Made by a program: the position numbers and the translations under genes. From Alphaproteobacteria bacterium (lineage in GTDB: Bacteria > Pseudomonadota > Alphaproteobacteria > Bin95), in the NCBI GenBank assembly GCA_963665325.3, contig OZ224045.1, positions 1,888,001-1,952,000 on the forward strand: a stretch of DNA of 64,000 nt, in the 5' to 3' direction. This document shows, piece by piece, positions 29,487 through 35,490 of this stretch. Under the pieces are notes generated by a model. The model had not been told where the DNA came from and did not search any database. It saw nothing but the letters and a program-made list of their open reading frames with translations. Within the stretch, counting starts at the first letter, position 1. Each line of letters starts with the position of its first letter.

Positions 29487-30503
29487 CTAACTATCCGGAA
29501 TCGTGTCTTGTAAAGCGTCGGAGATTCGCTTTATTTGCGCGGCGGCGTCTTCTATGACCCGCTCCTGTTCGACGCCGGCCTTCAGCCGAATGGGAATGCA
29601 CGGTCTTTCATTGGGAACTTTCACGTCCGTGAAGCTTCCACAAATCATTTCGAAAGCGTCGACGGTGCCATGCTGGGGCACCAACCACAACGGCGAGATT
29701 CCATGATCGCGCCATATCTTGAAGACAATCGCTAGAGATAGTTCAAACTTGTCGTGCGTACGGAAATACCGGCGGATATAATCGAAAGTAGCAGTAGGCA
29801 TATAGCCTTTTGTATCAGCTATTCCGTCGTCCACGAGCTTGTTTACGATCCCATTTATCAATCCGATGTAGTTCATTAATCGGCGCACTATCTCCTGATC
29901 GGTGACTTCATCTTCGCGCAGCGGCAGGAATGCCTCGGAGTCAGTCCAGTTCGTCAGCGCCTGTAACTGGAGGAGGTCGGCCCTAACCTCGTCATGCCCC
30001 TTGGAACGGGCAGCGTCCAGTAATGTCTCCAGGACATATTTCCAACTGGCGACCAGCATAGTCTTACCGCCGACACGGGCGCGATTGCCGGCCGCATCCT
30101 TCCATTCGAGTCCCGCGTCACTGCATCGCGCCCTGAGTTCGTGCCAGACCGTCGAAATTCTCTGCTCGGGAACGATGAACACAAGGGCTGACGGAGGGTC
30201 TTCTACGAGGTGGCCGAGATAAGACACGGGTTGCGCGTCGGTCAGCCCGGCCCAGAATTTGTTCTCGACGAAGACCCGCACACAACCGTTGCTGTCATGG
30301 ATCGTAAGGTCCGGTTGGCCCTCTCCATGTTCCAACTCGGCCTCGATGCGCCCGGGCTCGAACTCGATATCTGCGTCTCGCAGCATTTCGACGAACGCCT
30401 TGGCGATGTCCGGTTTCGATTTCAGTATGTAGGCCAGAGCCTGCGTCGCGGCGGGCTCGTTCTGTAGCGCCCCTCCAAGAACGACATGCGCCAACACGCT
30501 CAT
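29487..30503 (-). CDS. PD-(D/E)XK nuclease family protein
   Basis: QPDL...FVENKFWAGLTDAQPVSY (PD..ExK, Q..Y); visibly lower GC than its neighbours. Confidence 0.75.
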   Translation of the reverse strand: MSVLAHVVLGGALQNEPAATQALAYILKSKPDIAKAFVEMLRDADIEFEPGRIEAELEHGEGQPDLTIHDSNGCVRVFVENKFWAGLTDAQPVSYLGHLVEDPPSALVFIVPEQRISTVWHELRARCSDAGLEWKDAAGNRARVGGKTMLVASWKYVLETLLDAARSKGHDEVRADLLQLQALTNWTDSEAFLPLREDEVTDQEIVRRLMNYIGLINGIVNKLVDDGIADTKGYMPTATFDYIRRYFRTHDKFELSLAIVFKIWRDHGISPLWLVPQHGTVDAFEMICGSFTDVKVPNERPCIPIRLKAGVEQERVIEDAAAQIKRISDALQDTIPDS

Positions 30504-31024
30504 AGAGCTTACCCCCCGTTCTGTCGGTCCAGAGGCTTTCCGCCGGATGGCGGGCGGCTCGACCGGACCGGGCCGTGCCGGAGCCGCATCGGACGGCATT
30601 TCGGGCCGGACTGCAACCCTGCCCTGGTGAAGATGGTATTTTGTTCCAGGAATTATGAAATAATTCTCCATAAAGGCTAGACGTCAGGGCAACCAGCCAC
30701 TATATAGGACTACACGGAGCGGCATCCGGAGGCCGCCCCGTCCTCCGCGTCGGCGCCGGCGCGAAAAAATGCCCCTGAGAAACGCATGGGAGAGGTGCGT
30801 CCTGCGTCTCGCGCGCGCAATCAGGCGCGCGAGCCGCGCCGCCGCGAAGCGCGCGCGGGCGGGCACAGGCGCGGCTCGCGCAGGATACGCGCGAATCAGG
30901 GTCCCGCCGCACCGGGAAGCCGGGCGGAGGGACGAACGGAACGGAGTGGAACGAATCGCGATGGAGGAACGATCATGCAGCATACCCCTCTCCGTCACCC
31001 CGGCCGGAGGTCCGCATGCCTCTT

Positions 31025-31126
31025 GCGTCACCCCGGACGGCGCGCCAGCGCCGAGCCGGGGTCTCCGGACGAAGGGTTGCCCTTGTTGCACGAAGCCCCG
31101 GCTTCCCCGCTCGGGGGCGGGGACGG
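31025..31126. repeat. REP-like palindromic element
   Basis: cgtcaccccggacgg...gagccggggtct followed by gaagccccggc...ggggacg; partial copy cgtcaccccgg at ~30993. Confidence 0.45.
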
Positions 31127-31234
31127 GCGCGGTCCTGGGCGACGCAAAGGGAACGCGCACCTGCATCCTGAGCAGTTACAATAGGATATGAGCCATCCGC
31201 ATGCGGATCATGACATCTCTCGAGTAACTAACGC

Positions 31235-32611
31235 TCACGCCATGGCCCTATCACCATCGGGCGCTTGCATGTCCTGGGCGGGGTGGATCAGTTGGTAGCC
31301 GAGGGTTCGAGCCTTGCGCCGCAGGTTGGCGAGGGAACGGTCGATGCGCCGTTTTTCGTAGGCTTGCATGCCTTTTTCGACATATTGCTCACCCCGCGTC
31401 ACTATCAGATAGATCAGGCAAGCCAGTTCGCGGGCGGTCGCGGTTATCGCGACGGGAGTGTCCTTTCGGGCGAGCCGGGCGCGATGTTTGGCGCCGATGA
31501 AGGTCTGGCTCCTTCGTGCCGACATGGCTGCCATGCGCAGGGCCTGTCCGACCGGGTTGACCACCTTGTGCGTCCGGCCCGGCAAAGGCTTGCCGCCGCT
31601 GATCCTGGTGCCCGGCGCCACCCCCAGCCAGGAGCAGAAGTGTTGGGCGGAAGGGAAGGCGGAGAAGTCCGGGCCGATCTCGGAAGCGATCGTCAGAGCG
31701 GTTCCGGGACCGATGGTCGGGATCGCGGTCAGGTCGGTGCCCATCATGGCGGTCAGGGCCACGGTCAACGCCTTGTCGGTCATGGGGCCGACCGCGCGGA
31801 GTGTTTCGTGGGATGCGTCACCGCCGCCCGGCCCGTCCGGTGGCGTCAGATCGTCGATCTGCTCCGCGATCCGCGCCTCGCAGTCCTCGATCTGCCGGTC
31901 GAGGAAGTCATAGCGCTGCACGGCCTGCTCCAGGGCGAAGAGATGCTCCTCGCGCCAGGTGCCTTCCAGGCTCGCGGCGATTGTGTCCGCGCTGGCCTTG
32001 ATCCGCCGGTGCCGGAACGATGCCAGGCGCTGCGGGTCGCGTTCGCCGTCGACGATCGCCCGCAGGATCTTCATGCCGGTCTGCCCCGTGATGTCGGCGA
32101 TCGCCGAGTCCAGCCGGACATTCATCTCGGTCAGCGCCTTCTGCATGTGCTGCACGCAGCGCGAGCGGTCTTCAGTCAGGCGCTTCATCTGGCGCACATA
32201 GGAGCGAAGCGGGCAGACCGCATCGCCAGGACGGAAGGCGCCCCGCAGCAACCCGTAGGACAGAAGCTGCCAGATCCACTGGCAATCGAGCACGTCGCTC
32301 TTGCGACCGGCAATCTGCTTCGTCATCCGCGGGGGCACCAGGAGCACCTCGAAGCCGGCGCGTTCCAGCACCTCGTAGACCGGGATCCAGTAAACCGAGG
32401 TCGACTCCATCGCCACCTTCGTCACGCCGCACGACGAAAGCCAGTCCGCCATCGCCCGCAGATCGCAGGTGAAGCCGCCGAACGCCCGGACCGGGTCCGA
32501 AGTGCGCGCCGGATCGACGGCCACGAAGTGACGGTCCTTACCGATGTCGATCCCGGCGCAATCCGGGTTCACAACCCTCAACCGCTGCCTCTTCCCGGTC
32601 TTGCGCGCCAT
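31235..32611 (-). CDS. IS110 recombinase/transposase (458 aa)
   Basis: GIDIG, AMESTS, KSDVLD (DEDD tetrad); IPTIG; FCSWLGVAPG..ISGG. Confidence 0.95.
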   Translation of the reverse strand: MARKTGKRQRLRVVNPDCAGIDIGKDRHFVAVDPARTSDPVRAFGGFTCDLRAMADWLSSCGVTKVAMESTSVYWIPVYEVLERAGFEVLLVPPRMTKQIAGRKSDVLDCQWIWQLLSYGLLRGAFRPGDAVCPLRSYVRQMKRLTEDRSRCVQHMQKALTEMNVRLDSAIADITGQTGMKILRAIVDGERDPQRLASFRHRRIKASADTIAASLEGTWREEHLFALEQAVQRYDFLDRQIEDCEARIAEQIDDLTPPDGPGGGDASHETLRAVGPMTDKALTVALTAMMGTDLTAIPTIGPGTALTIASEIGPDFSAFPSAQHFCSWLGVAPGTRISGGKPLPGRTHKVVNPVGQALRMAAMSARRSQTFIGAKHRARLARKDTPVAITATARELACLIYLIVTRGEQYVEKGMQAYEKRRIDRSLANLRRKARTLGYQLIHPAQDMQAPDGDRAMA

Positions 32612-32642
32612 GCTGGTCCCCATTTTGTGTGCCGGTGCGGAC

Positions 32643-32787
32643 GGGGAAGAACCACGCAACAATGCCCAATCTCTCGAACGAGGTCGCGGCGAACCGCGCC
32701 ATCAGTGACAGAAGCCGATCGTGGTTCGGGCCAAGCTCATGAACGGGCGCTACATGCACACCAGTGATTCTCCGGCCTCCATTCCCC
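32643..32787 (-). ncRNA. Putative bridge RNA of the IS110 element
   Basis: Closing stems GGGGAA/TTCCCC and GAACCACG/CGTGGTTC; two loops TCAC-TG(G/A)...hairpin...GTT-guide; the guides match the element junctions. Confidence 0.7.
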
Positions 32788-33203
32788 AGACCGACCTCAA
32801 ATCACAACACCGCCGCCAAGGCCACAAGGCCCCGTTACTTGCGCGACAGGGCCCACGCCCCGCGCGGGTGGGTGCTCATGACACTTCCGCAGGGGGTTCG
32901 CTGCATGCAGGGGCCGGTCGCGGGAAGATCGGAACAAAAACGGATTGAAACGCGATGAGGGAGCGGCATTCGGGATGTGGAGAAACTGGGGTTCGGAAGG
33001 ATGGGGCTGCCGCCGCGAAATCTTCTCTCCCGCGCGCGGGCTACCGGATTCACACTTCTCCGCCCGGTGGCGTCGCATCGCATGTTCACCAACCTCACGC
33101 CCCGGCCCCGGACCGCAGCCCGGGGCAAGCTACCCTCGCAGGCGAGGGAGGGAGACAGACAGCGATCTCATGTCCGAAAGGACCACAGGACATGCGTCAC
33201 GAG

Positions 33204-33245
33204 CATGGGAATCATGACAGACCATGACATCCCATGACACTTCCG
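33204..33245. repeat. Three CATGACA heptamers at 10-bp spacing; second copy of the IS target motif
   Basis: atCATGACAgacCATGACAtccCATGACActtccg. Confidence 0.8.
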
Positions 33246-33345
33246 GGGGCGTGTTGCCGCAGTCGTGCCGCGCAATCTCCACCGGATGCCGGCCGCCGGT
33301 GGTTCTCCCCCGAAGGGCCGTCGGATCGTCCGGGTCGAATCGCCC

Positions 33346-35490
33346 CTAAGCCGCCGGTGCCACCCGGCAGGGGATGCCCTTGAAGTGGGGGATGCCTTGC
33401 TCGCGGTCGAGGAAATCCTCGTCGTCGGGGCAGAGTTGGGCGTCGGCCATTTCCCAGGCGCTCTCGAGCCCGACCTCCGGCAGCCACCAGCCATGCGGAA
33501 TCCGCACCAGGCCCCTCTGCATGTCGTCGCGGACGGCGGCCTTCATGTGCACGCGCCCCTGCGCCGTTTCGGCGACGGCGGGCTCGCCGTCCGCTATGCC
33601 GGCTTCGGCAGCATCGTCGGGGTGAAGGAAGAGCAGGGGCTCAGGCGCGCGGGCCCGCAGGGCTGCGATATGGCGGTGGCCGGTCTGGAAATAGGCGTCC
33701 TCGCGCAGGCCCGTGAACAGGCGGAGCGGCATGTTTTCGGGCGCCGCCGGCTCCTCGCGCCAGTAGGGCAGGGGGTCGAAGCCGAGCTCGGCCAGCACGG
33801 AGGACGAAAGCTCGACCTTGCCGGACGGCGTGGCGAAGCCCGTCTCTTCGTATTTCCGGAACTGGAGGCCGTCCGTATGCAGGGCGTGCTGCCGGGCGAA
33901 GCTGTCGAAATCCATGCCGAGGGCCGCCACGCGGTGATCCAGCACGGCGTCCGCCGTTTCCCACGGAAAATGGTTGCCGAGGCCGAACCGGACCGCCAGG
34001 CCGCGCCAGAAATCGTAAACGCTGCGCGCCTCCCCGGGCGGCTCCGTGGCCTGCTGCGAGGTGCGGCAAAGTGCGGTCCAGCCAAATCCGTCCGCCAGCG
34101 CCTTGCGCTCCGTCCAGGCATCGCCCGGCAGGATGTAATCGGAGAGCGCGGCCGTCGGCGTCTTCATGTGCTCGAAGGTGACGAGAAGGTCCTGGTTCAG
34201 GAGCGCCCTCTGGATCAGCTGCATGTTGGCGAAGCTGAGCAGCGTGTTGTTGCCGAGCGCGAAGAACGCCTTGACCGGATAGGGCTCGCCGTCCGCCATC
34301 GCCCGGAACACCGCCGACGGCGTGGCCATGTAGCAGCCGGAGACGATGTTGGCGTATCGCCGGCCCCATACGCGGAGCGTCGGCTCTTCCAGGGGTGCGG
34401 CGCCGCGATAGGTGAACACCGGATGGGTGTCGGACCCCAGCTGCTTGGCCTTCTGCGCTTCCGGCAGCGCGTCGTGAAGCTCCAGGTCCGTCTCCGGCAC
34501 GATGCGCGGGTGGAAGCCGTGCAGCACATCGCCGCCCGGAACGTCGAGATTGCCGCAGATGGCGCGCAGGATCGCCTGCAGCCGGATGGCGGAGGTCGAA
34601 TTGCGCTGCTGGTCGGTGATCGGCGACCACGGGATCACTGCGGGACCCGACTGCGCATAGAGGCGCGCGGCCTCGGCGATCTGGTCAGGCGCAACGCCGG
34701 TGATCTCCGCGACCCGGTCCAACGGAAACTCGTTGACGCGCGCACGGAGTTCGTCGAACCCCGCCGTCCACCGCTTGACGAAATCCCGGTCCCAGAGGCC
34801 TTCGTCCATGATGACCTTGAGCCATCCGAGGCACATGGCGGCGTCGGTGCCGACCTTGAGAGGCAGCCAGATGTCGGCGAGCTCGGCATTCTCCGACCGG
34901 CGCGGATCGAGCACGATCAGCTTCGCGCCGCGCTCCTGTGCGCGGCGGATGGCGTTGTATTCCGGCGTCCAGGAATGCGGCTTCGGATTGTGCCCGAACA
35001 GCACGATGCACTGCGTCTTGGTGAAGTCCGGATAGGGGAACCAGCCATAGACCAGTCGGTTGACGGCGGCCGTATTGCCGGCGCAGAGCGCCACGCCGGA
35101 AATCCAGTTGGGCGAGCCGACAAGGTTCATGAAGCGCCGGCACATGCCGTTGTCGGTCTGCGTGTTCCAGGAACTCGTCGAGACCGCGAACCCCTCCGGT
35201 CCATAGCGGTCGACAACCCGATGAAGGCGTTCGGCGATGTCGTCGAGCGCGCTGTCCCAATCGACCCGCTCCCATTCCCCGGAGCCGCGCGGCCCCTTGC
35301 GGCGGAGCGGATGCAGCACCCGGTCGGGATGAACGAAGCCGGAGGGCGCATGCACGCCCTTCATGCAGATATTGGCGCGTCCCGGCCTCGGGTCCATCGC
35401 CTTGACCCTGGTGACCTGCCCCCCTTCGGTCTCGACCGTAACCTGGCAGTAGATGTCGCAGGATGAGCAGAGCGCGCGCGCTTCGGGCAT
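33346..35490 (-). CDS. Bis-MGD Mo/W enzyme, acetylene hydratase-like
   Basis: CSSCDIYC..CMK 4Fe-4S motif, RRFMNLVGSPNW, LCAGNT, IPWSPITDQQRNS, ILPGDAWTER, GLRED, LDREQGIP. Confidence 0.88.
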   Translation of the reverse strand: MPEARALCSSCDIYCQVTVETEGGQVTRVKAMDPRPGRANICMKGVHAPSGFVHPDRVLHPLRRKGPRGSGEWERVDWDSALDDIAERLHRVVDRYGPEGFAVSTSSWNTQTDNGMCRRFMNLVGSPNWISGVALCAGNTAAVNRLVYGWFPYPDFTKTQCIVLFGHNPKPHSWTPEYNAIRRAQERGAKLIVLDPRRSENAELADIWLPLKVGTDAAMCLGWLKVIMDEGLWDRDFVKRWTAGFDELRARVNEFPLDRVAEITGVAPDQIAEAARLYAQSGPAVIPWSPITDQQRNSTSAIRLQAILRAICGNLDVPGGDVLHGFHPRIVPETDLELHDALPEAQKAKQLGSDTHPVFTYRGAAPLEEPTLRVWGRRYANIVSGCYMATPSAVFRAMADGEPYPVKAFFALGNNTLLSFANMQLIQRALLNQDLLVTFEHMKTPTAALSDYILPGDAWTERKALADGFGWTALCRTSQQATEPPGEARSVYDFWRGLAVRFGLGNHFPWETADAVLDHRVAALGMDFDSFARQHALHTDGLQFRKYEETGFATPSGKVELSSSVLAELGFDPLPYWREEPAAPENMPLRLFTGLREDAYFQTGHRHIAALRARAPEPLLFLHPDDAAEAGIADGEPAVAETAQGRVHMKAAVRDDMQRGLVRIPHGWWLPEVGLESAWEMADAQLCPDDEDFLDREQGIPHFKGIPCRVAPAA

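What the first reader, a model, noticed from the sequence alone, without database searches (positions are those of the whole stretch)
32701..33221. Left-hand guide positions break IS621 rules but match both halves of a neighbouring palindromic site
Under IS621 logic the segments before TG(G/A), AGAATCA-CT and TCTGTCA-CT, should equal the left flanks of target (atgacat-CT) and donor (gtgggtg-CT). They share only the CT. Instead, GAATCA and the reverse complement of TCTGTCA sit side by side at 33209-33221 (GAATCA|TGACAGA), split at the centre of a TCATGA palindrome. Partial matches occur at both junctions (gATCA|TGACA, cTCA|TGACA). An alternative boundary model with TCATGACA duplicated (31208-15, 32876-83) also fits. 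Inference: guide usage may be non-canonical, or this may be a post hoc coincidence.
Basis: partly seen in the sequence, partly recalled or inferred. Interest (0 to 1): 0.7.

Follow-up and report, generated by a model that had tools for sequence, protein, structure and literature searches.

The report
Bridge-RNA guide mismatch is mostly misregister
An IS110-type jumping gene with a guide ("bridge") RNA sits between short repeats, and the puzzling match of two of its guide strands to a nearby site mostly reflects a two-base reading error and a conserved motif, although one guide strand really departs from the textbook rule.

Summary
The element is a 1658-bp IS110-family insertion sequence on the minus strand (31217-32876) with a two-loop bridge RNA in its left end. 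It is inserted between two TGTCATG 10-bp iterons of a dispersed repeat family (89 arrays in the genome).

I compared 158 related loci. In this clade the 3' strand of each loop carries the long guide, which is the sense copy of the left flank plus the AG core. The 5' strand of the target loop pairs only with the first four bases right of the core. The pairing bases are the four bases just 5' of an invariant CA (z 4.5-6.7; 93 insertions, 61 guides).

TCTGTCA in the donor loop occurs in 12 of 20 close-clade guide sets, which carry 11 different target guides. It therefore cannot be reading this genome's iterons. The 13-mer at 33209-33221 lacks an AG core and is absent near the second copy and near the closest relative. 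I read it as a probable coincidence within the target repeat family.

One real departure from the IS621 rule remains. The donor loop's 5' strand does not pair next to the core. Instead it co-varies, in the same sense, with a subterminal left-end segment.

The parts
31217..32876 (-). IS110-family insertion sequence, including the AG core copy at each end. It runs 1658 bp from the first left-end base (32874) to the right-end core G (31217).
   Evidence: A second copy at 99% identity is in the same genome. Junctions of both copies were compared. The clade-wide right end is TTACTC(A/G)AG-AG. The parsed length of 1658 lies within the family range of 1590-1771.
31235..32611 (-). Transposase / bridge recombinase gene, 458 aa, counted from the ATG at 32611.
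   Evidence: ORF list. Pfam PF01548 E 8.7e-22 and PF02371 E 5.3e-14. NCBIfam NF033542 'IS110 family RNA-guided transposase', 282 bits against a cut-off of 140.
32875..32876 (-). Left-junction core dinucleotide AG (CT on the plus strand).
31217..31218 (-). Right-junction core dinucleotide AG (CT on the plus strand).
   Evidence: (AG)n expansions occur at this junction in relatives.
32639..32828 (-). Bridge RNA: a target-binding loop module followed by a donor-binding loop module.
   Evidence: RNAalifold on 28 relatives gives 28 pairs, 13 of them with compensatory changes. A 198-nt contig in a size-fractionated metatranscriptome covers 32648-32828 with adapter letters at both ends. The contig is a weak hint only.
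32763..32773 (-). 5' strand of the target loop, GGAGAAT-CA-CT. GAAT (32770-32767) is the short right-target guide. CA (32766-32765) is invariant. The T at 32763 belongs to the inner stem.
   Evidence: Covariation v7-v4 against RT1-4 gives z 4.8, 6.4, 6.7 and 4.5. Stem assignment.
32735..32743 (-). 3' strand of the target loop, TTCATG-AG-C. It is the sense copy of the left target flank plus the core plus the first left-end base (handshake position).
   Evidence: It matches the flank GTCATG-AG-C in both copies. The same rule holds in 5 multi-copy families whose ends are set by copy comparison. The handshake base equals RD1 in 58 of 65 cases.
32704..32714 (-). 5' strand of the donor loop, CTTCTGT-CA-CT. 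It is conserved across the clade and is not complementary to the left-end start.
32670..32678 (-). 3' strand of the donor loop, TTCGAG-AG-A. It is the sense copy of the right end (CTCGAG-AG).
   Evidence: G/A co-varies with the right end: CTCGAG against CTCAAG.
32843..32851 (-). Subterminal left-end segment CCCTGTCGC ('X'). It has the same sense as the donor loop's 5' strand and co-varies with it.
   Evidence: Anchored test: 4.65 of 7 against a null of 3.81, z 5.3, 0 of 2000 shuffles reaching it. Positional scan peak at +22 to +27, z 5.9-6.5. Within-clade shuffles: 73, 77 and 117 of 3000.
32834..32839 (-). Left arm of the subterminal inverted repeat (AGTAAC), 35 nt inside the left end.
   Evidence: The arm is 5-10 bp long and changes sequence together with its partner across clades.
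31223..31228 (-). Right arm of the subterminal inverted repeat (GTTACT), 4 nt from the core.
32877..32883 (-). Iteron TGTCATG forming the left target flank.
31190..31216 (-). Right target flank A-TGTCATG-ATCCGCATGCGG... This is the second iteron plus the conserved repeat body.
33209..33239 (-). Neighbouring unoccupied three-iteron array, TGTCATGGGA TGTCATGGTC TGTCATG ATTC.

Best explanation
What it is. An ordinary, probably active IS110-family element whose left end encodes a two-loop bridge RNA. The transposase strand is the window's minus strand. On that strand the crossover dinucleotide is AG.

Guide layout in this clade. It is reversed relative to IS621.
- The 3' strand of the target loop is the long guide. 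It is a sense copy of 5-6 nt of the left flank, plus AG, plus one handshake base.
- The 3' strand of the donor loop is a sense copy of the right end plus AG.
- The 5' strand of the target loop is a short guide. The four bases just 5' of an invariant CA pair with the first four bases right of the core.

This copy. Its guides specify TCATG-AG-AT(T/G)(C/T). In this genome that sequence is found mainly in the AGA spacer between TGTCATG iterons of a dispersed repeat family. Both genomic copies, the closest relative and a fourth copy in a public run all sit there.

1. A 2-nt register error: CT was taken as the core complement instead of CA.
2. The donor-loop strand TCTGTCA is a clade-conserved motif that happens to resemble the iteron.
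3. The neighbouring site is simply another member of the target repeat family. It lacks the AG core and is not a substrate.

Shown and inferred. Shown: the boundaries, the loop architecture, the covariation and the conservation. Inferred: that the base pairing happens in the enzyme, and how CA sits on the AG core.
For: - Family.
- Boundaries and core.
- Two internal-loop modules with compensatory pairs.
- Target-loop 3' strand equals LT + AG + RD1. This holds in copies A and B and in the L013, L020, L033 and L061 multi-copy families.
- Target-loop 5' strand. The right boundary was set only by the donor-loop 3' strand, so it is independent of this guide. v7-v4 are Watson-Crick complementary to RT1-4 in 48-59% of weighted rows, z 4.8, 6.4, 6.7 and 4.5. 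Twenty-six of 93 rows have 4 or more WC matches of 7, against 6.0 expected. Within the close clade alone the score is z +4.5 at offset 0, and no other offset exceeds z 1.6.
- The window copy has 2 WC + 2 GU of 7. That is about the median of the observed distribution.
- TCATGAGAT occurs 10 times in the genome, 5 of them in or next to iteron arrays, plus the two occupied sites.
- A fourth independent insertion has the same RT ATGTCATG (run X2).
- TCTGTCA is in 12 of 20 close-clade guide sets, which carry 11 different target guides.
- The composite 13-mer is absent near copy B and near L010.
Against: - Under a crude conditional model the 13-mer is not likely. Only 3 of 36 TGTCATGAT sites are preceded by TC, and only 1 of 36 is followed by TC. 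Both array instances of TCTGTCATGAT lie next to the two IS copies, which I cannot explain except by chance.
- The window copy's 5' guide matches its right flank only weakly (2 WC of the 4 co-varying positions).
- By my simple score the iteron sites rank mid-table (8 on a scale whose top is 12.5).
- Per-position pairing across the family is only about 50-60%. The rule is therefore statistical, and many natural insertions may be half-matches.
- Boundaries in single-copy metagenome loci were called from the guides themselves, so the LT/LD agreement there is circular.
- Shuffle tests do not remove relatedness between sequences.
Confidence: 0.75

Rival explanations
1. The two 5' strands, one from each loop, jointly recognise a TCTGTCA|TGATTC site split at the TCATGA palindrome. 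The neighbouring site would then be a functional docking or target site.
For: - There is a perfect 13-nt composite, unique in the genome.
- Partial versions occur at both junctions.
- Copy B also has TTCTGTCATGAT 12 nt beyond its right junction.
- The donor loop's 5' strand does behave non-canonically.
Against: - The clade scan shows no same-sense or antisense enrichment of the donor-loop 5' strand in the target flanks. The right-end frame from -150 to +30 scores z 1.8 or less for sense matches. In the left-end frame no flank position (-30 to 0) reaches the six highest sense scores.
- There is no target-loop signal at offsets 6-7.
- TCTGTCA is conserved in relatives with unrelated targets.
- The site has no AG core.
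- The composite is absent near copy B and L010.
- The RT7-12 bases differ among the four insertions.
Confidence: 0.07
2. The element ends are 8 bp further out, and TCATGACA is a target-site duplication.
For: An identical 8-mer lies at 31208-15 and 32876-83.
Against: - In copy B the two 8-mers differ by one base, and an extra AG sits at the right junction.
- Relatives with unrelated flanks end at the same TTACTC(A/G)AG-AG (67 of 80 records).
- They begin at AG-C...ACC.
- The 8-mer is the iteron of the target repeat.
Confidence: 0.02
3. The iteron insertions are half-match (left-flank only) events, and the cognate full-match target lies elsewhere. An example is TTCATG-AG-ATTTTCC at contig C1 position 2429042, outside the window.
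For: - That site scores highest genome-wide: LT 6 of 6 and RT 6 WC + 1 GU of 7.
- Half-match insertion is reported for IS621 (abstract of bioRxiv 10.64898/2026.08.31.748434).
- Relatives inserted into the DNA that encodes their own 3' guide (L007, L043). This shows that a left-flank match can suffice.
Against: - The score distribution has a smooth tail (counts 9, 5, 2, 1, 1 at scores 10.5 to 12.5), so the top site is not clearly beyond chance.
- That site is unoccupied.
- All four readable insertions are in iteron spacers.
- The covariation gives no signal beyond RT4.
Confidence: 0.15

Closest known systems
IS621 / ISEc21 (IS110 group) bridge RNA or seekRNA system
   Same: - A DEDD + Tnp_20 recombinase.
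- A guide RNA encoded in the left end, upstream of the gene.
- Two internal loops, each with a stem-loop.
- A 2-bp core that reads CT on one strand.
- A handshake base after the core in the 3' guide.
- Insertion into a dispersed repeat.
- Rules taken from passages of PMC11208158 and PMC11208160.
   Different: - The recombinase is only remotely similar (phmmer E 1.4e-5 to 8wt6_A) and is 458 aa against 328 aa.
- The strand order is reversed. Here the 3' strand is the long, sense guide for the LEFT flank, and the 5' strand is a short antisense guide for the right flank.
- An invariant CA sits where IS621 has CU.
- The donor loop's 5' strand does not pair next to the core.
- The inverted-repeat arms are asymmetric: 4 nt against about 35 nt from the core.
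IS1111-group seekRNA elements (ISEc11, ISPa11, ISKpn4)
   Same: - The order of matches in the RNA is the same: the top-strand complement lies 5' of the bottom-strand match (passages of PMC11187229).
- Subterminal inverted repeats are present.
   Different: - In IS1111 elements the non-coding region lies downstream of the transposase gene. Here it lies upstream.
- Their repeats are described as 7-17 bp (PMC11208160). Here they are 5-10 bp and placed asymmetrically.
- I did not test phylogenetic placement against named IS1111 members.
Repeat-targeting IS110-family elements. IS621 and ISPpu9 insert in REP sequences. IS4321/IS5075 insert in transposon terminal repeats.
   Same: They insert in one orientation at a fixed position in a short dispersed repeat.
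   Different: Here the target is the spacer between 10-bp-period TGTCATG iterons. The examples named are taken from reference lists and abstracts and from recall, and I did not compare them here.

Membership tests
IS110 family RNA-guided transposase (NCBIfam NF033542) | Whole-protein score above the curated cut-off | tested here: met
   282.2 bits against a cut-off of 140
IS110 family RNA-guided transposase (NCBIfam NF033542) | N-terminal DEDD (RuvC-like) domain and C-terminal Transposase_20 domain | tested here: met
   PF01548 at residues 19-163 and PF02371 at residues 294-369
Bridge RNA system of the IS621 type | Non-coding RNA with two internal loops, each interrupted by a stem-loop | tested here: met
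   RNAalifold on 28 sequences gives 28 pairs, 13 of them with changes on both sides
Bridge RNA system of the IS621 type | First loop co-varies with both target flanks | tested here: met
   The 5' strand against RT1-4 gives z 4.5-6.7. The 3' strand equals the left flank in five multi-copy families
Bridge RNA system of the IS621 type | [quoted passage not shown] | tested here: not met
   The order is reversed. The 3' strands are sense copies of the left halves, and the target loop's 5' strand is antisense to the right half
Bridge RNA system of the IS621 type | Second loop pairs with both donor halves next to the core | tested here: not met
   The 3' strand matches the right end. For the 5' strand against RD1-4, the observed pairing fractions are 0.08, 0.27, 0.18, 0.38 against a null of 0.12, 0.37, 0.23, 0.27
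Bridge RNA system of the IS621 type | Conserved CT core dinucleotide at both ends | tested here: met
   The core is AG on the transposase strand, which is CT on the other strand. The right end finishes in ...AG-AG in 67 of 80 records
Bridge RNA system of the IS621 type | Recombinase-RNA complex recombines donor and target | not testable with these tools
Two 99-100% identical copies and a fourth insertion in a public run suggest recent activity
IS1111 group | Long non-coding region downstream of the transposase gene | tested here: not met
   The region is about 260 nt upstream and about 17 nt downstream of the gene
IS1111 group | Subterminal inverted repeats of 7-17 bp | tested here: inconclusive
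   Arms of 5-10 bp were found in 61 rows, 6 bp in this copy, and they are placed asymmetrically

The most novel reading that the evidence does not exclude
In this branch of the IS110 family the 5' strand of the donor loop is a real donor guide of a new kind. It does not pair with the right donor half beside the crossover. It reads a subterminal left-end segment about 23-30 bp inside the element, on the strand complementary to the transposase strand, immediately core-side of the left inverted-repeat arm. Both donor guides would then pair with the same DNA strand. That would fit a looped, or single-stranded (copy-out), donor intermediate.
Probability: 0.3. Interest if true: 0.75.

Novelty: new variant of a known kind. 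Interest (0 to 1): 0.42.

Why it matters
For the finding as written, the result is mostly deflationary. The neighbouring 'palindromic site' is another copy of the repeat that the element targets, and the apparent rule-breaking of the target loop disappears once the register is set by covariation.

Three points may interest people who engineer bridge recombinases.
1. A left-end-encoded bridge RNA can carry the IS1111-like guide order, with the long programmable guide on the 3' side and only about 4 nt on the 5' side.
2. An invariant CA, not CU, sits at the core position of both 5' strands.
3. The donor loop's 5' strand tracks a subterminal left-end segment rather than the crossover-proximal donor half.

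If point 3 reflects base pairing, the donor requirements for reprogramming this branch would differ from those of IS621.

Tried and rejected
- **Rfam.** A scan of 30500-34000 at E up to 1 gave no family.
- **Single-sequence fold.** The left end folded alone gave z -1.42, which is uninformative.
- **Alternative registers for the target-loop 5' strand.** I tried no bulge, an A bulge, and offsets 1-12. None gave a signal beyond z 1.9.
- **Canonical pairing of the donor-loop 5' strand with RD1-7.** I tested it at shifts of -1, 0 and +1. No excess appeared except at the conserved RD1 position.
- **Unanchored best-identity search for the donor-loop twin.** It was weak: 5.29 against 5.13. I replaced it with anchored tests.
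- **A conserved hairpin between the left-end start and segment X.** I thought I saw one by eye. RNAalifold found no consensus pairs across 32 sequences. Minimum-free-energy z-scores against shuffles averaged -0.14, with 6 of 58 below -2. I withdraw the hairpin.
- **A 'cognate' full-match target at C1:2429042.** It is the top score, but the tail of the distribution is smooth, so it is not significant.
- **c1 pairing with the last left-flank base.** It scores z 3.5 overall, but by eye only about 5 of 17 close-clade sets fit. I treat it as weak.
- **RNA runs X16 and X17.** They covered only parts of the transposase gene. Parts without cover carry no meaning.
- **Not used or not available.**
  - Complex prediction, structure prediction and the protein searches were not used.
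  - Supplements of papers were not requested. [quoted passage not shown] - **Literature basis.**
  - No description of this guide layout turned up in searches, judged from the listings.
  - PMC11208158, PMC11208160 and PMC11187229 were read as passages only.
  - PMC13626964, 10.64898/2026.08.31.748434 and 10.1101/2025.10.25.684509 were read as abstract and outline only.
Full report
**What is there.** Window 31217-32876 holds, on the minus strand, an insertion sequence of the IS110 family.
- It has a 458-aa gene (32611 to 31235) with the DEDD_Tnp_IS110 and Transposase_20 domains. The protein scores 282 bits against NCBIfam NF033542, 'IS110 family RNA-guided transposase', cut-off 140.
- It is only remotely like the solved IS621 recombinase (E 1.4e-5). 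The best plasmid-borne relatives are about 48-50% identical and are annotated simply as IS110 family transposases.
- The same genome has a second copy at 99% identity.
- Upstream of the gene lie about 260 nt of non-coding left end. Downstream lie only about 17 nt.

**Boundaries.** I fetched 78 related loci from genomes (transposase 57-98% identical) and 80 from metagenomes (47-65% identical).
- Of the 80 records examined (the 78 genome loci plus the two copies in this genome), 67 carry TTACTC(A/G)AG followed by AG. Beyond that point, copies of one family diverge.
- Several copies carry (AG)n runs at that junction.
- On the left, multi-copy families share sequence from AG-C...ACC inward and diverge outside it.
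- The crossover dinucleotide is therefore AG on the transposase strand, which is CT on the window's plus strand. It lies at 32875-76 and 31217-18.
In copy B the two 8-mers differ and an extra AG is present.
- The repeat arises because the element sits between two neighbouring TGTCATG iterons. The reconstructed empty site is ...GGAAG TGTCATG AG A TGTCATG ATCCGCATGCGG.

**The target repeat.**
- TGTCATG occurs 710 times, against about 308 expected. TGTCATGAT occurs 36 times, against about 8 expected.
- A pattern for two or more iterons with a 10-bp period finds 89 arrays on four of the five contigs; none was found on C2. Typically there are three iterons, often preceded by GGGGCCCACTCCA and followed by a conserved body.
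It lies 330 bp from the one the element split.

**The RNA.** An alignment of 28 relatives folds into two modules. Each is an internal loop closed by an outer stem and interrupted by a stem-loop. There are 28 pairs, 13 of them with compensatory changes. This is the IS621 architecture as described in PMC11208158 (passages).

A size-fractionated metatranscriptome holds a 198-nt contig that covers 32648-32828. It has adapter letters at both ends and a higher depth (137.6) than the gene-body pieces (20-30). This is a weak hint of an RNA of about 181 nt comprising just the two modules. Contigs cannot prove RNA ends.

[quoted passage not shown] Here the order is reversed.
- The 3' strand of the first loop (TTCATG-AG-C, 32743-32735) is a sense copy of the left flank, plus the core, plus the first base of the element. 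The same holds in copies A and B and in four further multi-copy families whose ends are fixed by copy comparison (L013, L020, L033 and L061 families). The base after AG equals the first left-end base in 58 of 65 distinct cases. The left boundary call used that base as a tie-breaker, so this figure is slightly circular.
- The 3' strand of the second loop (TTCGAG-AG) is a sense copy of the right end. Its G/A tracks CTCGAG against CTCAAG.
- This order, with the top-strand complement 5' and the bottom-strand match 3', is the one that PMC11187229 reports for IS1111-type seekRNAs and contrasts with ISEc21. Yet the non-coding region here is upstream, as in the IS110 type.

**The 5' strand of the target loop.** I parsed loops in 134 of 160 records. 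I set the right boundary only from the donor loop's 3' strand (100 elements). After removing tandem and self-insertion cases and duplicates, 93 insertion rows with 61 distinct 5' strands remained.
- A position-by-position complementarity matrix with guide shuffling gave one clean anti-diagonal. The four bases immediately 5' of the CA are complementary to RT1, RT2, RT3 and RT4 (z 4.8, 6.4, 6.7, 4.5; 48-59% paired).
- CA is nearly invariant: 78 of 80 sets, and it is also conserved in the regex-free alignment.
- Twenty-six of 93 rows have 4 or more Watson-Crick matches of 7, against 6.0 expected.
- In the close clade alone (17 guide sets), offset 0 with CA skipped gave z +4.5.
The C is a variable linker base (A in 39, C in 26, G in 9 and T in 6 of 80 sets). 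The T is the first base of the inner stem.
- How the invariant CA lies on the AG core cannot be settled by covariation. The options are C pairing with G and A unpaired, or both bases bulged.

**This copy.** Its short guide is GAAT, which predicts RT ATTC. The real RT is ATGT. That is two Watson-Crick pairs plus one G-T among the four co-varying positions (2 WC + 2 GU over all seven), about the family median.
- Together the guides specify TCATG-AG-AT. TCATGAGAT occurs 10 times in the genome, 5 of them in or next to iteron arrays, besides the two occupied sites. Iteron spacers are therefore the commonest sites that fit.
- The four insertions I could read (A, B, L010 and a contig of run X2) all have RT ATGTCATG. 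They differ further out.

**The 13-mer.**
- On the minus strand the site reads GG TCTGTCA TGATTC CC. Its right part, TG-ATTC, does contain the ideal RT ATTC. However, TCATG is followed directly by ATTC, with no AG core, so under the clade's rules it is not a substrate.
- Its left part matches the donor loop's TCTGTCA. That motif is present in 12 of 20 close-clade guide sets, which have 11 different target guides. It was therefore not shaped by this genome's iterons.
- The composite is absent from the flanks of copy B and of L010.
- A positional scan finds no enrichment of donor-loop-like sequence in target flanks across the family.
- I rate the match a coincidence within the target repeat family, with some discomfort. 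Only 3 of 36 TGTCATGAT sites are preceded by TC, and the two that lie in arrays are both next to IS copies.

**What remains non-canonical.** The donor loop's 5' strand (CTTCTGT-CA-CT) shows no complementarity to the first bases of the left end. Observed fractions are 0.08, 0.27, 0.18, 0.38 against a null of 0.12, 0.37, 0.23, 0.27, from 57 rows and 36 distinct strands. Two features emerged instead.
1. **A subterminal inverted repeat.** Its right arm lies 3-5 nt from the core. Its left arm begins 31-39 nt inside the left end in most rows. In this copy the arms are GTTACT at 31228-31223 and AGTAAC at 32839-32834. The arm sequence changes in step across clades (AGTAAC, AAGAAACA, CAAACA, CGAACAA and others).
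2. **A same-sense twin of the donor-loop strand.** The variable part of the donor loop's 5' strand has the same sense as the segment just core-side of the left arm, and is similar to it (CCCTGTCGC, 32851-32843).
   - Anchored test: 4.65 of 7 identical against 3.81 expected, z 5.3, with 0 of 2000 shuffles reaching it. The antisense control was reached by 605 of 2000 shuffles.
   - A scan from -30 to +120 around the left end and from -150 to +30 around the right end peaks only at +22 to +27 (z 5.9-6.5). A weaker antisense echo appears at +29 to +32 (z 3.2-3.8).
   - Shuffling within each of three clades still gives 73, 77 and 117 of 3000.
   - Clear co-changes include CGATG/CGATG against CAATG/CAATG (L108, L131), CTTTC (L068), CTCGGTC (L033), GATAAAC (L154) and GCTTCGTC (L028).

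Same-sense identity would mean one of three things:
- the RNA pairs with the complementary DNA strand of that segment;
- both are recognised by the same protein surface;
- both pair with a third partner that I did not find.

If the RNA of about 181 nt is real, the left-end twin lies outside it and would act as DNA. This part is inference, and relatedness inflates shuffle statistics.

**Verdict.** Its interpretation as a split, palindrome-centred guide usage is not supported. The element is an ordinary member of the IS110 family by protein, and a variant of the bridge-RNA design by RNA logic.

**Novelty.** I found no description of this layout in the searches or in the passages read. Figures and supplements, which may show other IS110-group patterns, could not be seen.

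Noticed in passing
window 33213-33239, 32877-32883 and 31190-31216; genome-wide: There is a dispersed repeat family. It has two to four TGTCATG iterons with a 10-bp period, often preceded by GGGGCCCACTCCA and followed by CCSCATGCG..GGCNCATRT..TTCGGGCATGA. I found 89 arrays on four of the five contigs (none on C2). The iteron resembles a Pho-box half-site (from recall), but the period is 10 rather than 11 and there are far too many copies. Its nature is unknown.
   Followed up: partly
L063, L066, L067, L068, L020, L023 (right junctions): (AG)n tracts of up to 13 repeats lie between the right end and the flank. Copy B in this genome has one extra AG. This looks like repeated core slippage or repeated rounds of recombination at the core.
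   Followed up: no
L007 and L043 (right flank); L022, L026, L030-32, L036-L056: Some copies are inserted into the DNA that encodes their own target-loop 3' guide. Their right flank continues with the sequence that follows the guide. Many others form head-to-tail tandems with a genomic RE-AG-LE junction. This is self-targeting by a left-flank match alone.
   Followed up: partly
window 32834-32839 and 31223-31228: The subterminal inverted repeat is asymmetric. One arm lies 4 nt from the core and the other 35 nt from it. The arm sequence co-varies across the family.
   Followed up: yes
window 31348-31415: In run X15 a 68-nt piece inside the 3' part of the transposase gene forms an 85-nt contig with adapter letters at both ends. 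Its depth, 418, is the highest of any piece. It may be an abundant small RNA fragment or an artefact.
   Followed up: no
G000 contig C1 position 2429042 (outside the window; locus L164): This is the best genome-wide match to both target guides (TTCATG-AG-ATTTTCC). It lies in an intergenic stretch at the edge of a low-GC region (0.42-0.54 against 0.67). It is unoccupied and is not statistically beyond the tail of the score distribution.
   Followed up: partly
run X2, contig laid at window 31209-32883: A related organism carries the element (32 differences over 1675 nt) in a different iteron array. Its right flank reads ATGTCATGTTTTGTCATGGGGCGGGG. This is a fourth independent insertion of the same type.
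   Followed up: partly
window 32884-33208: The roughly 325 bp between the two arrays ends in CCTCATCGCGTTTCAATCCG...TTCC. That resembles the sequence downstream of the split array (30900-31000) and the sequence beside copy B. The iteron arrays therefore seem to head repeat units of about 330 bp, arranged here in tandem.
   Followed up: no
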